A stretch of DNA of 42,600 nt, taken from positions 1 through 42,600 of the forward strand of contig CAYTYC010000011.1 in the NCBI GenBank assembly GCA_964442255.1. Direction: 5' to 3'. Below are positions 36,001 through 39,000 of the stretch, in pieces; the stretch's first letter is position 1, and every line of letters starts with the position of its first letter. This DNA comes from an uncultured archaeon. GTDB lineage: Archaea > Iainarchaeota > Iainarchaeia > Iainarchaeales > 1-14-0-10-31-34. The position numbers are program-made.

Positions 36001-39000
36001 AACAAAAAGAAGAAACTAACGTTTGAAGAAAACTAATCAGCTGATCTTTCCCCCAACCCGCTTCACAAAAGCAAATCCAAAAAAAACAGAAAAAGCGGTT
36101 GATTCCTGCAGCGGGAACCAGCCTGATTCAAAAGGCAGTTTTTGCTTTACCACCAGGCCATTGGCGCTGTTCCGATGAGTGTTCTCTCAAAGGAAACTTT
36201 TCCCCATGTCAAGTCGTCTTTAAAGCAAACAACCTGTGGCTCCCAATTGTCGCTTCCGCCGCCAAAATTCACTCTTTGCTTGTCTATGAGTGCCCTTGGA
36301 ACAATTTTTTGCTTGTCAATTAAAACCTTTGTTCCGCCGCTTGTTTTTCCCCATATAACGTCGTCAGAGCTGCTGGCATGCAAGCCAACTGCCGCAAAAG
36401 CAAGCACTGCAGCAATTATCCCAATTAAAACCAAGTTCTTCATGGCCCAAACCTCCTGTAGTATTGAAAGGATTGCTTTAATTAGTGCTTAACCCCTAAA
36501 GCTTTTCCAGCGCCTTTTCCACTTCCCCCAGCGCTTTCTTTTTTTTCCACTCCACAGGGACTCCGATTATCTTCAACCCCTTTAATTCCCCCAGCTTTTC
36601 CTTCAGTCCCAAATATAGCCCGAAATCAAAGTCATGCATGGAGGTGCGGTTCAAAAAATCAAAGCCCTTCAAAGAATCAAAAACGCGGACTTCTTTCAAT
36701 CCCTGCACTGCATCCAGTATTACCACTTTCCCCCAGTCCTCCACTTCATCCAGTTCCCGGGGCTCCTGCACTTCCCTTACTTCAAACCCTTTTTTCTCCA
36801 GTTCTTTCCCCAGCTCCAAAGCAATTGAATCCCCTTTAAGCAGGGGATTCCCGAACACAAGCACTTTGCGCTTCATCCAAATAATCTTTTAAGGACTTAT
36901 CCATTTTAACTCTTACATGTCCCACAGGAAAGGCGTTTTCCTTGCATTTCTTGCCGCATTGGTGAGCGGAGCCTCAATTTTCCTGAATTCCTTTGCTGTC
37001 CAGCCTTTTGACCCTTTTTTGTTCACTTCCCTGAAAAACGTTCTGGTTGTCGTTCTTCTCTTTGCAGTCTTCCTTTTCCTGAAAGATTTGAGCTCATTTA
37101 AGCTCCTTAAAAGAAAACACTGGCTCCAGCTCGCGTTAATCGGTTTAATCGGCGGAAGCATTCCCTTCCTTTTATTCTTTTACGCGTTGTCCCTTACGAC
37201 AGTGGTTAACGCCGCCTTCATTCACAAGCTCTTGTTTTTGTTTGTGACAGCCCTTGCGGTTGTGTTTTTGAAGGAAAGGTTCAGCAAAAAAATCTTTTTT
37301 GGGGCGGTTCTCCTGCTTTCCGCAAACATCCTGCTTTTCGGGATAAATGTCGTGCAGTTCACCTTCATTGACCTCTTAATTCTAACAGCCACCGTTTTCT
37401 GGGCGGCTGAAAACGTGATAAGCAAGCGCGTTTTAAAGGAGCTTTCCGGGCTGCAGGTGGCTTTCGGGAGAATGTTTTTCGGTTCGCTTTTCCTTTTTGG
37501 GTTTCTTTTTTTCACCGGAAGAATTGAACTGATTCCTTCACTTTCCCTTTCCCACTTTTTTTGGGTTTTCCTGACCGCGGGCTTCCTCTTCGCTTACGTT
37601 CTTTTCTGGTACTCCGGCCTGAAGCTCATTCCCGCCTCAACCGCGGCCTCAATCCTTTTAATTGGCCTTCCCGTTACCGCAACCCTTAACGCGGTTTTCC
37701 TTGGAAAAAGCATTCTCCCTCTGCAGGCCCTTGCTTTCCTTTTGTTGTTCCTTGGAATAACTTTTTTCCTTTCCCCGCAGAAAAATTTTTCCTCCCTTAA
37801 AACCAAACCCTTTGGTTGAACCCATGAACGGACTGGAGTTGTTCGGAAAGTTTGCCTTCAGGCCCAACCAATTGAAGTACTGCGGCGAGGAAGGATTTTG
37901 GAAGCATTTCCTCCAGTACCTGAATTCCGGTGAAACTGAAGAAAACCTGCGCTCAAAAATGAAATCCTTTCCTGTTGCCTTCCCTTTTCTTTCCCTTATC
38001 GCAAGAAAAAACTGCGCGGAAGATTTTTTGGATGAAAGGGTTGTGGAGGCCTACTGGATTGGGAACAGCCTTTTGGAGCAGGTTAAGGCAGAGGACATCA
38101 ACAAACTGGTTTTGAATGAGCTTACAAAGAATGAATCCCTGCAGGAAAACATCGCACAGGAAATAGCCAAAAAAATCCCTTTTTCCGCCTTTTCCCACCA
38201 TTCCCTGCACGTTTTTTTGCTCCATGCAGCCTCCGGAACCGAGCCCCGGATGGCTAAGCACCTGGATTCCTGCAGAATTTCCTGGGGCGAGGTTCTGAAG
38301 GTTAAGGGCGAAACCCGGATGGCTAAGCACCTGGATTCCTGCAGAATTTCCTGGGGCGAGGTTCTGAAGGTTAAGGGCGAAAAGGCCACAGTTCTTTTCA
38401 ATCCCATCTCCCGTTCAAACGGAAAATTCCTGCTTTCAGAGCCAAAGGAAAAAGAAATTGCTGTCCCAAAGGAATTCAGCCTTCAATTGGAGAGAGGCGA
38501 TTTTGCTGCCTTTCACTGGAATACTGCGGCGGTAAAGCTTTCCCCAAAGCAATTAGCGAATTTAAAAAAGTACACGGAACACAACCTGAAAGCAGTGAAC
38601 TCATTTTAGCGGCTTTTTCTTTTTGAGTGCGTTCAAAACCTTTGCAGTCTGCCTTTCATCCTCTTTGCTTAGCTCTTCAATCACTATCCTGCCTTTGAGC
38701 AAAACAAAGCTTCCCTTCCTCGCGCCAATAAGGTTTTTTGCCTCGATAAGCTGTTCCCCGAACCTTACCAGTGCAATTCCTTCCCTTTCTTCAGCCACTT
38801 TTCCCGGGAGAGTGAGGCACATGCTAAAAGAAAGGCTGAATCAGTTTATAATGTTTATTTATTTTTCAGAACCCTTATTTTTTCCACCCATAAACAAATT
38901 CATCAACCCTTTGGCTTGCATTTTCATTCCCGGTGCCCCAATCGAACGGCTTCAAATCCGGAATACTCCCTTTCTTTTTCTTTTTTCCTTTTTTACGTCT

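What a model noticed while it worked through the whole genome (the two positions that open the first line are those of the whole stretch)
37824..38609. DUF6390: hydrogenase-linked HypC-like protein found only where HypD is missing
g00759 (DUF6390), 2.5 kb downstream of the [NiFe] hydrogenase genes, belongs to a family that in Iainarchaeales occurs almost only in genomes with that hydrogenase, usually beside it, and never together with HypD. I read DUF6390 as a new hydrogenase maturation factor: an all-helical domain with invariant Cys and a HHSxH motif fused to a HypC-like beta-barrel that starts with the carrier cysteine (CRIxWGKV as against MCLxxPGKV of HypC), standing in for the missing HypD/E/F scaffold. 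New would be a function for an uncharacterised family and a second route to build the [NiFe] site.
Evidence so far: Six-frame searches of the same 191 genomes: DUF6390 (PF19927) in 58, the large subunit (PF00374) in 70; 57 of the 58 DUF6390 genomes have the hydrogenase (the exception G059 is 81% complete); the 4 genomes with HypD all have the hydrogenase and all lack DUF6390. Positions in calls 124 and 129: same contig and <=5 kb apart in 25 genomes (G000 and the closed G016 included), 5-8.5 kb in 10 more (counted by eye from the two tables). Alignment of 8: invariant N17, C22-G23, H128-H129-S130-x-H132, H211-W212, near-invariant DSCRIxWGK. AF2 model pLDDT 88.5, pTM 0.87: ten helices then a six-strand barrel; Foldseek finds no PDB match at E<=0.001, only OB-fold uS17 for the barrel. 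hhalign lays HypC g007 [...]
(Added by a program. Inside this text positions count along the whole contig: contig position 1 is position 1 of the stretch shown here. "Call 12" and the like, gene names such as g00115 and contig names such as C1 are that model's own, and its searches are not shown. The text may have been shortened before it was handed on; [...] marks where a part breaks off. The agent that wrote the report below was given it as the finding of a first reader that could run no searches.)

Follow-up and report, generated by a model that had tools for sequence, protein, structure and literature searches.

The report
HypD-replacing hydrogenase maturation protein DUF6390
This gene encodes an uncharacterised protein, part new helical domain and part HypC-like iron-carrier domain, that sits beside nickel-iron hydrogenase genes in many microbial phyla and is found almost only in genomes lacking the standard HypD, HypE and HypF assembly enzymes, which points to an undescribed way of building the hydrogenase active site.

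Summary
Window 37824-38609(+) encodes a 261-aa DUF6390 protein (PF19927, E 1.2e-50). It lies 4 nt after an EamA transporter gene, converges on hypC, and is 2.4 kb from a four-gene [NiFe] hydrogenase operon. Its 69-nt in-frame tandem duplication is present in independent contigs of two runs.

The hydrogenase link is not confined to one order. DUF6390 occurs in at least 596 species across many phyla. HypC lies in 61 of the 80 best loci, immediately upstream in 35, which is where hypD sits in classical operons.

HypD and DUF6390 exclude each other:
- HypD was found in 1 of 50 mixed DUF6390 genomes (probably mis-binned).
- It was found in 0 of 22 Chloroflexota, 0 of 58 genomes of the window's own order, and 0 of 27 in the class of G032.
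- Of 124 hydrogenase-bearing Chloroflexota, 105 have HypD only, 17 DUF6390 only, 0 both and 2 neither.
- Sister species in two genera carry either HypC-HypD-HypE-HypF or EamA-DUF6390-HypC.

The C-terminal domain is homologous to HypC (hhalign 96%; best PDB match, Z 5.5). It keeps HypC's Cys and His, whereas partner HypCs mostly lack the His.

Best reading (0.7): the core of a HypDEF-independent maturation route. The source of the CN and CO ligands is unknown, and there is no biochemistry.

The parts
31313..32368 (+). hydrogenase iron-sulfur (beta-like) subunit
   Evidence: Fer4_22, E 1.3e-27
32365..33189 (+). hydrogenase FAD/NAD(P)-binding (gamma-like) subunit
   Evidence: NAD_binding_1 E 1.1e-18; DHODB_Fe-S_bind; FAD_binding_6
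33179..34060 (+). [NiFe] hydrogenase small subunit
   Evidence: Oxidored_q6, E 5.2e-20
34110..35390 (+). [NiFe] hydrogenase large subunit, with both CxxC metal-binding motifs
   Evidence: PF00374, E 6.5e-30. RICGTCSPAH and DPCFSCSTH are visible in the translation.
36496..36876 (-). divergent hydrogenase maturation endopeptidase
   Evidence: TIGR00072, E 5.2e-6; no Pfam hit. The same 127-aa family lies beside DUF6390 in 15 of 80 loci.
36917..37819 (+). EamA-family transporter, 4 nt upstream of DUF6390; part of the module
   Evidence: PF00892, E 4e-37. EamA is adjacent to DUF6390 in 25 of 80 loci. The partner is present in DUF6390-type genomes and was not found in HypD-type sister genomes.
37824..38267 (+). 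DUF6390 N-terminal all-helical domain (residues 1-148), with invariant Cys20 and His126
   Evidence: conservation; ten helices. No structural match reaches Z 5.
38268..38609 (+). DUF6390 C-terminal HypC-homologous OB barrel plus helix (residues 149-261), with Cys150/Cys173 and His231
   Evidence: hhalign 96.3%, E 2e-9. VIA Z 5.5, rmsd 2.1, 71 of 71 residues against HypC 2z1c. Profile against PDB, E 0.004.
38240..38377 (+). in-frame tandem duplication (2 x 69 nt) that repeats the Cys-bearing first barrel strand
   Evidence: 97% identity; double depth, junction piece; the second copy loops out, pLDDT about 50-66.
38601..38822 (-). stand-alone HypC, with Lys in place of the conserved His
   Evidence: PF01455, E 5.3e-7, 30.1 bits; alignment A3.

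Best explanation
DUF6390 is a [NiFe]-hydrogenase maturation factor. Together with a stand-alone HypC and an adjacent transporter (EamA here; MFS or an SBP5-type ABC system elsewhere), it takes the place of the classical HypD/HypE/HypF set.

Shown:
- It is a two-domain protein: a helical domain of no recognised fold, fused to a true HypC homologue.
- The HypC-like domain keeps the two residues that align to Cys2 and to the conserved His of HypC. From recall, these are the Fe-binding residues of E. coli HypC (the His is His51).
- The gene sits directly after hypC, where hypD sits in classical operons.
- Genomes that carry it have hydrogenases but lack HypD, HypE and HypF.
- Its partner HypC has usually lost the His.

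Inferred:
- The helical domain (Cys20, His125/126 and other invariant polar residues) and the fused HypC-like domain (Cys, His231) together hold the iron unit of the active site, as the HypC-HypD complex does.
- The unit then passes, directly or through the His-less HypC, to the large subunit. After that, Ni insertion (HypA/HypB where present) and C-terminal cleavage by the endopeptidase proceed as usual.

Not resolved: where the CN and CO ligands come from. The constant pairing with a transporter suggests that some precursor is taken up rather than made by HypE/HypF.
For: (a) Breadth.

(b) Neighbourhood in the 80 best loci.
- A large subunit lies within 8 kb in 44, and some hydrogenase or hyp gene in 60.
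- HypC is present in 61, within <=100 nt in 41, and immediately upstream on the same strand in 35.
- HypA, HypB, HycI, NikR and NicO also occur.
- No recurrent neighbour family that was scanned matched HypD, HypE or HypF.

(c) Absence of the classical set in 50 DUF6390 genomes from many phyla. HypD in 1 of 50. HypF above cut-off in 2 of 50. HypE above cut-off in 1 of 50. PF00374 hits in 48 of 50.

(d) Chloroflexota sample of 251 genomes.
- The 124 genomes with a large subunit split into 105 HypD-only, 17 DUF6390-only, 0 both and 2 neither.
- 3 more DUF6390 genomes have the large subunit at a laxer threshold.
- The same group-1-type large subunit (E about 1e-230) occurs with either system.

(e) The window's own order: 58 DUF6390, 4 HypD, no overlap. 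Class of G032: 27 DUF6390, 19 HypD, no overlap.

(f) Same-genus swaps. G354 and G359 carry HypC>HypD>HypE><HypF. Their congeners G355 and G357 carry HypC><DUF6390<EamA. The EamA partner is present in G355, G356 and G358 and was not found in G354 or G359.

(g) HypC homology.

(h) Covariation at the His column of HypC. 20 of 20 HypD-linked HypCs have His. Only 8 of 64 DUF6390-linked HypCs do, and the window's own has Lys. DUF6390's own His231 is invariant.

(i) The two apparent exceptions look like decay or mis-binning.
- G031's HypF is truncated beside a transposase.
- G033's DUF6390 contig is 97.2% identical to a Nitrososphaerales contig.

(j) A Nitrososphaerales clade that seemed to lack a hydrogenase carries a NuoD-like gene with RICGICSFAH and DPCFGCMDR motifs next to DUF6390.
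Against: - There are no biochemical, genetic or expression data.
- No source of the CN and CO ligands has been identified. A roughly 240-aa protein without nucleotide-binding motifs cannot obviously do the work of HypE and HypF.
- The Cys is internal, whereas HypC's is N-terminal after Met removal.
- 9 of 70 hydrogenase genomes in the order, and 2 of 124 in Chloroflexota, have neither system. Either other routes exist or the MAGs are incomplete.
- Almost all genomes are MAGs (60-99% complete), so absence is statistical rather than proven per genome.
- The Fisher tests are not corrected for shared descent.
- 8 of 64 partner HypCs keep the His.
- ArsR-HTH fusions and the transporter pairing would also fit a sensing or transport role.
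- The window's own copy carries a 23-aa duplication of unknown effect.
- Two unpublished genomes (G088, G223) are among the 105 HypD-only Chloroflexota. Without them the count is 103.
Confidence: 0.7

Rival explanations
1. DUF6390 is a nickel or other metal handling protein: a chaperone, a sensor, or the cytoplasmic partner of the adjacent transporter. It would supply or sense metal for the hydrogenase and would not replace HypD/E/F. The absence of HypDEF would then have another, unknown cause.
For: - A transporter lies within 400 nt in 45 of 80 loci: EamA 25, MFS 11, SBP5 9. The SBP5/BPD genes resemble nickel/peptide ABC importers.
- NikR and NicO lie nearby in Nitrososphaerales loci.
- Some family members carry an N-terminal ArsR-type HTH (P0064, P0082, P0103).
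- The invariant Cys and His residues could bind Ni.
Against: - The anticorrelation is with HypD/E/F, the iron-site enzymes. The nickel factors HypA and HypB sit in the same clusters.
- NicO is present next to the MFS in L046, so the MFS is not needed for Ni.
- The fused domain is homologous to HypC, the iron-unit carrier.
- The gene occupies the hypD position after hypC.
Confidence: 0.12
2. DUF6390 is only an enzyme-specific HypC paralogue, comparable to HybG or HupF, that chaperones the large subunit. The iron unit would be made by other, still unrecognised proteins, or these hydrogenases would be inactive relics.
For: - The HypC-like domain.
- Two DUF6390 copies, each beside its own large subunit, in G246.
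- Unannotated recurrent neighbours in Thermomicrobiales clusters: families of 452, 114, 915 and 361 aa with no Pfam or NCBIfam hit.
Against: - DPANN and Patescibacteria clusters contain no such extra unknowns. They hold only EamA, DUF6390, HypC, a protease and sometimes HypA.
- The strict either/or with HypD, and the same-genus swaps, are what functional replacement predicts, not what an added chaperone predicts.
- The large subunits keep intact metal-binding motifs across phyla.
Confidence: 0.12
3. DUF6390 works with EamA in a metabolite transport function unrelated to hydrogenase, and the linkage is hitch-hiking.
For: EamA-DUF6390 are 4 nt apart here and adjacent in 25 of 80 loci.
Against: - The transporter family changes (EamA, MFS, ABC) while the link to HypC and hydrogenase stays.
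- 57 of 58 carriers in the order, 20 of 22 in Chloroflexota, and 48 of 50 in the mixed set have a large subunit.
Confidence: 0.03

Closest known systems
HypC/HybG/HupF family (PF01455, TIGR00074), the iron-unit carrier of [NiFe]-hydrogenase maturation
   Same: The C-terminal 110 residues share its fold (OB barrel plus C-terminal helix) and its sequence motifs (C-x4-G-K-V at the first strand; GDxVxxH before the last strand). Both are encoded in hydrogenase clusters.
   Different: The Cys is internal, not residue 2. The domain is fused behind a 148-residue helical domain. The Pfam HypC model does not hit it at E <= 0.01. A separate HypC, mostly His-less, is kept alongside.
HypD (PF01924), the Fe-S scaffold that, with HypC, receives CN from HypE and carries Fe(CN)2CO
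   Same: Same operon position directly after hypC. Mutually exclusive distribution. It carries an invariant Cys and His that could share the iron with a HypC-type Cys, as HypD's conserved Cys is reported to do (recalled).
   Different: There is no sequence or fold similarity: it is all-helical, not alpha/beta. It has one invariant Cys in the N-domain, too few for a [4Fe-4S] cluster. It comes without HypE or HypF and with a transporter.
HupF, a HypC-like protein with an extra C-terminal domain (Rhizobium, Ralstonia; recalled)
   Same: A HypC-type domain extended by another domain, present in addition to HypC.
   Different: HupF works together with HypD/E/F and its extension is C-terminal. DUF6390's extension is N-terminal and the classical enzymes are missing.
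Archaeal [FeFe] hydrogenases without HydE/F/G maturases (PMC11216029; passages read)
   Same: The same kind of puzzle: a hydrogenase is present while the canonical cofactor-building enzymes are absent, including in a closed genome.
   Different: It concerns a different enzyme superfamily, and no replacement candidate was proposed in the passages read. Here there is a specific, genetically linked candidate.

Membership tests
DUF6390 (PF19927) | Pfam HMM score above the gathering cut-off | tested here: met
   172.7 bits against 25, E 1.2e-50. The match splits into two stretches because of the duplication.
DUF6390 (PF19927) | Family-invariant residues: Cys20, His126, barrel Cys, His231 | tested here: met
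   All are present in the window protein. The barrel Cys is present twice, as C150 and C173.
HypC/HupF (PF01455) | Pfam or NCBIfam model hit | tested here: not met
   No PF01455 hit at E <= 0.01. No NCBIfam hit.
HypC/HupF (PF01455) | Homology by profile-profile comparison and by fold (OB barrel plus C-terminal helix) | tested here: met
   hhalign 96.3%, E 2e-9, 67 columns. VIA Z 5.5, rmsd 2.1, 71 of 71 residues of 2z1c_A, ranked first of 48,161. Foldseek probability 0.95, TM 0.66, but E 0.21.
HypC/HupF (PF01455) | Cys as residue 2, N-terminal after Met removal | tested here: not met
   The Cys is internal (residue 150/173) and preceded by a conserved D-x.
HypC/HupF (PF01455) | Conserved His in the GDxVLVH motif | tested here: met
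   H231 is invariant in 74 sequences and aligns to the His of T. kodakarensis HypC.
HypD (PF01924) | Pfam model hit, alpha/beta fold, and four-Cys [4Fe-4S] motif | tested here: not met
   No PF01924 hit in the protein or anywhere in the genome. The N-domain is all-helical. It has only one invariant Cys.
Functional class: [NiFe]-hydrogenase maturation factor | Conserved linkage with hydrogenase and hyp genes across distant lineages | tested here: met
Functional class: [NiFe]-hydrogenase maturation factor | Binds Fe, or Fe(CN)2CO, and is required for hydrogenase activity | not testable with these tools
   This needs protein chemistry and genetics.

The most novel reading that the evidence does not exclude
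The transporter-DUF6390-HypC module is a salvage or import route for the hydrogenase iron site. Instead of making cyanide from carbamoyl phosphate with HypF/HypE on a HypD scaffold, these organisms take up a precursor through EamA, MFS or an ABC importer. The precursor could be a ligand source or even a preformed iron-ligand unit. The new helical domain of DUF6390 captures or processes it and loads it onto the HypC-type Cys/His site. Alternatively, the helical domain is itself a new enzyme that makes the diatomic ligands from an imported metabolite. Either way, CN and CO would reach a [NiFe] site by chemistry that has not been described.
Probability: 0.25. Interest if true: 0.95.

Novelty: new variant of a known kind. 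Interest (0 to 1): 0.86.

Why it matters
From recall, HypC, HypD, HypE and HypF are treated as the universal core for building the Fe(CN)2CO unit of [NiFe] hydrogenases.

In the samples searched here, hydrogenase-bearing genomes that carry DUF6390 lack HypD, and in the 50 mixed genomes tested they also lack HypE and HypF. These genomes come from at least five phyla. They include abundant soil and groundwater groups: Chloroflexota, Acidimicrobiia, Nitrososphaerales, Patescibacteria and DPANN archaea. In their place sits a compact, genetically defined candidate module.

If the reading is right:
- It changes how hydrogen metabolism is called from genomes, because 'no hyp genes' would no longer mean 'no active hydrogenase'.
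- It gives a function to a family of more than 800 sequence clusters.
- It offers a three-gene set that could simplify heterologous production of hydrogenases.
- It opens the question of how CN and CO ligands can be obtained without HypE/HypF.

No paper in the searched library mentions DUF6390 or PF19927.

Tried and rejected
- Complex prediction of DUF6390 (A2) with HypC (A3): no answer, score 0.26 against a mark of 0.32. This is not evidence either way.
- Foldseek against the PDB: nothing at E <= 0.001.
- N-domain folded alone (pLDDT 82.2) and searched against 48,161 chains: best Z 4.3, so no fold assignment.
- ESM Atlas by features for residues 1-145: no usable hit.
- NCBIfam: no family for DUF6390 or for the recurrent unknown neighbours.
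- Sequencing runs: no RNA holder listed.
- Papers. The terms 'DUF6390', 'PF19927', 'HypC-like'+hydrogenase+'domain of unknown function', 'hydrogenase maturation'+DPANN+hypD, hypD+Patescibacteria, hypD+Thaumarchaeota, and hypD/E/F+'group 3b' gave nothing on a HypD-less [NiFe] route in the listings I saw. Subscription journals and bioRxiv supplements are not covered.
- A provisional reading that a Nitrososphaerales clade keeps MFS-HypC-DUF6390 without any hydrogenase was rejected. Their 'NuoD' carries both Ni-binding CxxC motifs. A protein search with a group-1-type large subunit had found nothing there.
- The weak 'HypA' hit in G000 is a rubrerythrin. The HypE and HypF hits in G000 are below cut-off and are paralogues.
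- My first ORF clustering used a 70-aa minimum and greedy overlap removal. It under-counted HypC (23 loci) and gave antisense artefacts in high-GC loci. The HypC count was redone with an HMM.
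Full report
WHAT IS THERE

Window 37824-38609(+) encodes a 261-aa protein. 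It matches Pfam DUF6390 (PF19927) at E 1.2e-50, 172.7 bits against a cut-off of 25.

It is the last gene of a hydrogenase neighbourhood:
- Four genes at 31313-35390(+) encode a sulfhydrogenase-like [NiFe] enzyme: a Fer4_22 subunit, an FAD/NAD subunit, a small subunit, and a large subunit (PF00374, E 6.5e-30).
- The large subunit has both metal-binding motifs, RICGTCSPAH and DPCFSCSTH.
- A divergent maturation endopeptidase lies at 36496-36876(-) (TIGR00072, E 5e-6).
- An EamA transporter lies at 36917-37819(+) and ends 4 nt before DUF6390.
- hypC lies at 38601-38822(-), convergent with DUF6390 and overlapping its 3' end by 9 nt.

The genome G000 has 1.28 Mb in 51 contigs and is 93.8% complete. 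Searches of it gave:
- one DUF6390 gene and one HypC;
- no HypD and no HypB;
- only sub-threshold paralogue hits for HypE and HypF;
- a weak 'HypA' hit that is a rubrerythrin.

THE DUPLICATION

A 69-nt direct repeat, 38240-38308 / 38309-38377, is 97% identical. It repeats 23 residues that include the conserved D-S-C-R-I-S-W-G strand. No homologue has it.

In Logan contigs of two runs from one study (possibly the source sample), the shared 69-mer sits at about double depth: 14.3 against 5.7, and 15 against 8.7. A separate 60-nt piece, 38284-38343, crosses the junction of the two copies at single depth. The duplication is therefore in the reads.

AlphaFold places the first copy in the barrel and loops out the second, with pLDDT about 50-66 for residues 161-180.

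ANATOMY

The whole protein gives a model with pLDDT 90.9 and pTM 0.90: ten helices (3-150), a barrel (153-239), and a helix (241-259).

The C-terminal part is a HypC homologue:
- Profile-profile comparison with 23 HypC sequences gives 96.3% probability and E 2e-9. D-x-C-R-I-S-W-G-K-V lies on M-C-L-x-x-P-G-K-I, and GDxVSxHW lies on GDYVLVxxG.
- HypC of Thermococcus kodakarensis (2z1c) is the best of 48,161 PDB representatives: Z 5.5, rmsd 2.1 A, all 71 residues aligned, 25% identity, model 150-258 on chain 2-72. E. coli HypC ranks third.
- The two top PDB sequence hits of the family profile are HypC entries, E 0.004.
- Foldseek alone gave no hit at E <= 0.001. HypC appeared at rank 27 with probability 0.95.

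The N-terminal domain was folded alone (pLDDT 82.2). It has no structural match of Z 5 or more and no Atlas lead.

In 74 cluster representatives, the invariant residues are C20, G80, H126, the barrel Cys and H231. G21, H125, W78, N81 and W232 are conserved in at least 90%.

DISTRIBUTION AND CONTEXT BEYOND THE ORDER

The family has 909 homologues in the word-indexed search and 815 representatives at E <= 0.001 in the exhaustive search.

By record titles, the 80 best loci are from Woesearchaeota, Nanoarchaeota, Iainarchaeum, Altiarchaeota, Nitrososphaerales, Patescibacteria, Thermomicrobiales and other Chloroflexota, Acidimicrobiia and other Actinomycetota, Armatimonadota and Dormiibacterota. 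Some carry other labels.

I called ORFs within 8 kb, clustered them, and scanned cluster representatives against Pfam. The counts, of 80 loci, are:
- a large subunit in 44;
- any hydrogenase or hyp gene in 60;
- a transporter within 400 nt in 45 (EamA 25, MFS 11, SBP5 9).

A HypC-specific HMM scan found HypC in 61 of 80 loci, within 100 nt of DUF6390 in 41, and immediately upstream on the same strand in 35.

Typical gene orders:
- DPANN: beta, gamma, small subunit, large subunit, protease, EamA, DUF6390, <HypC, <HypA.
- Thermomicrobiales: large subunit, NifU, DUF5947, ..., HycI, HypA, HypB, HypC, DUF6390, SBP5, permeases.
- Nitrososphaerales: NikR, NicO, ..., HypC, DUF6390, MFS, <HycI, NUBPL, small subunit, x, large subunit.

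In these orders DUF6390 occupies the place of hypD after hypC.

A Nitrososphaerales clade at first looked like an exception, because its only PF00374 hits are 414-aa 'NuoD' genes. Those proteins carry RICGICSFAH and DPCFGCMDR, which makes them group-4-like [NiFe] large subunits. They lie about 6 kb from DUF6390.

THE CLASSICAL ENZYMES ARE MISSING WHERE DUF6390 IS PRESENT

I searched 50 of the 80 genomes whole, in six frames:
- HypD in 1 of 50 (G033).
- HypF above cut-off in 2 of 50 (G033, G031).
- HypE above cut-off in 1 of 50 (G033).
- PF00374 in 48 of 50.

The controls rang as expected in E. coli, Synechococcus, M. jannaschii and M. acetivorans.

The two exceptions are weak:
- G033's DUF6390 contig is 97.2% identical over 5,371 nt to a Nitrososphaerales contig, although the bin is labelled Bryobacterales.
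- G031's HypF lies on a 4.5-kb contig. It is truncated (HypF_C_2 positions 1-91 of 241) and is overlapped by an IS4/5 transposase gene.

In an even sample of 251 genomes of the phylum of G031:
- DUF6390 is in 22, HypD in 117, and the large subunit at E <= 1e-15 in 124.
- The 124 split into 105 HypD-only, 17 DUF6390-only, 0 with both and 2 with neither.
- Fisher's test gives 5e-19, uncorrected for descent.
- Three of the five DUF6390 genomes below that threshold have a large subunit 2-3 kb from DUF6390.
- Two of the 105 (G088, G223) are unpublished genomes. Without them the count is 103.
- Large subunits of the same type (E about 1e-230) occur with either system.

In the class of G032 (201 genomes), DUF6390 is in 27 and HypD in 19, with no overlap.

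In the window's own order (196 genomes):
- DUF6390 is in 58, HypD in 4, and the large subunit in 70.
- 57 of the 58 have the large subunit.
- No genome has both DUF6390 and HypD.
- 9 hydrogenase genomes have neither.

These four sets overlap slightly. G019, G031 and G032 recur, and G004 appears to be the same genome as G468.

SAME-GENUS SWAPS

In genus g21, G354 has HypD and G355 has DUF6390. In genus g22, G359 has HypD and G356-G358 have DUF6390.

The loci show HypC>HypD>HypE><HypF in G354, G359 and G480. They show HypC><DUF6390<EamA in G355 and G357.

The EamA partner of G357 is found in G356 (79% identity), G355 (60%) and G358 (71-74%). It is not found in the HypD-type G359 (91% complete) or G354 (89% complete).

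So HypD+HypE+HypF and transporter+DUF6390 behave as alternative cassettes around a retained HypC.

COVARIATION IN HypC

At the column of HypC's conserved His (GDxVLVH):
- 20 of 20 HypCs next to HypD have His. A HypC was found in 20 of the 23 regions examined.
- Only 8 of 64 HypCs in DUF6390 loci have His. The others are Gln 16, Phe 18, Asp 7, Asn 6, Tyr 7, Val 1 and Ala 1.
- The window's own HypC has Lys.

The substituted residue differs by lineage. DUF6390's own barrel keeps an invariant His. This fits a shift of the Cys/His iron site from HypC to DUF6390. The 8 exceptions show that the shift is not obligatory.

INTERPRETATION

Shown:
- A two-domain protein with a HypC-homologous domain.
- Tight, multi-phylum linkage to hypC, a transporter and hydrogenase genes.
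- Near-complete mutual exclusion with HypD/E/F.

Inferred:
- DUF6390 is the scaffold or carrier for the iron unit in a HypDEF-independent route.
- The transporter supplies something that HypE/HypF would otherwise make.

I put the first inference at 0.7 and the import or new-chemistry reading at 0.25.

The rivals are a metal-handling or sensor role, a mere chaperone paralogue, and an unrelated transport function. They are weakened by three things: the specific exclusion of the iron-site enzymes, the co-presence of HypA, HypB and NicO, and the minimal DPANN and Patescibacteria clusters.

KNOWN WORK

No paper in the library contains 'DUF6390' or 'PF19927'. Searches combining hypD with DPANN, Patescibacteria, Thaumarchaeota or group 3b found nothing on a HypD-less route in the listings I saw.

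Passages of PMC11216029 describe the analogous unsolved absence of HydE/F/G in archaea with [FeFe] hydrogenases.

The roles of HypC Cys2 and His51, and of HypD, HypE and HypF, are cited from recall.

LIMITS

- Nearly all genomes are MAGs.
- The statistics are not phylogenetically corrected.
- My ORF calling is crude.
- I could not read model coordinates, so whether the invariant residues form one site is untested.
- There are no expression or biochemical data.

Noticed in passing
L012:16528-17766(-), and the same gene in L020, L024, L029, L038, L039 and L060: In a Nitrososphaerales clade, the 'NuoD' of a complex-I-like operon (NuoL/M/N, K, J, I, D, C) carries RICGICSFAH and DPCFGCMDR. These are the two Ni-binding CxxC motifs of a [NiFe] large subunit. 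The operon may therefore be a group-4-type hydrogenase rather than plain complex I.
   Followed up: partly
L096 (G031, contig 504) 1601-3673(+) and 2915-4138(-): In a DUF6390-carrying Thermomicrobiaceae genome, HypF is truncated in its last domain and is overlapped by an IS4/5 transposase gene. It looks like a decaying remnant of the classical pathway.
   Followed up: partly
L052:7223-12587 against L046:7225-12589: A contig binned as Bryobacterales is 97.2% identical over 5.4 kb to a Nitrososphaerales (Gagatemarchaeum) contig. The rest of the locus does not align. Mis-binning or a chimeric contig is likely.
   Followed up: partly
proteins P0064, P0082, P0103: Some DUF6390 proteins carry an N-terminal ArsR-type HTH (PF12840, PF01022). 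This suggests the domain can also act as the sensor of a regulator. Their genomic context could not be fetched.
   Followed up: no
G246, contig C27: 5776-7317, 9454-10167, 12842-14029 and 19012-19740: One Chloroflexota genome has two DUF6390 genes on one contig, each a few kb after its own large-subunit gene. This resembles isoenzyme-specific HypC paralogues.
   Followed up: no
window 35453-36036(+): A DUF5678 protein (66 aa, E 1.3e-12) and an overlapping retropepsin-like aspartyl protease (130 aa, E 2.5e-4) sit between the hydrogenase operon and the maturation protease.
   Followed up: no
window 29061-31368(+): Two ORFs lie directly upstream of the hydrogenase operon. By my reading of their translations they are GAPDH and phosphoglycerate kinase; I did not scan them against Pfam. 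A PGK gene (Pfam PF00162) also lies within 8 kb of DUF6390 in 4 Patescibacteria-type loci.
   Followed up: no
window 42219-42599(+), running off the window end: The ORF contains at least three tandem copies of a 15-residue unit (RADLRDAVLTGVRMD), which looks like a pentapeptide repeat.
   Followed up: no
L021, L016, L025, L041, L067, L085 (Thermomicrobiales clusters): Recurrent neighbours of 452, 114, 915 and 361 aa have no Pfam or NCBIfam match. They lie between the large subunit and HycI/HypB/HypC/DUF6390, together with DUF5947, DUF6084 and NifU(-Rieske) genes.
   Followed up: partly
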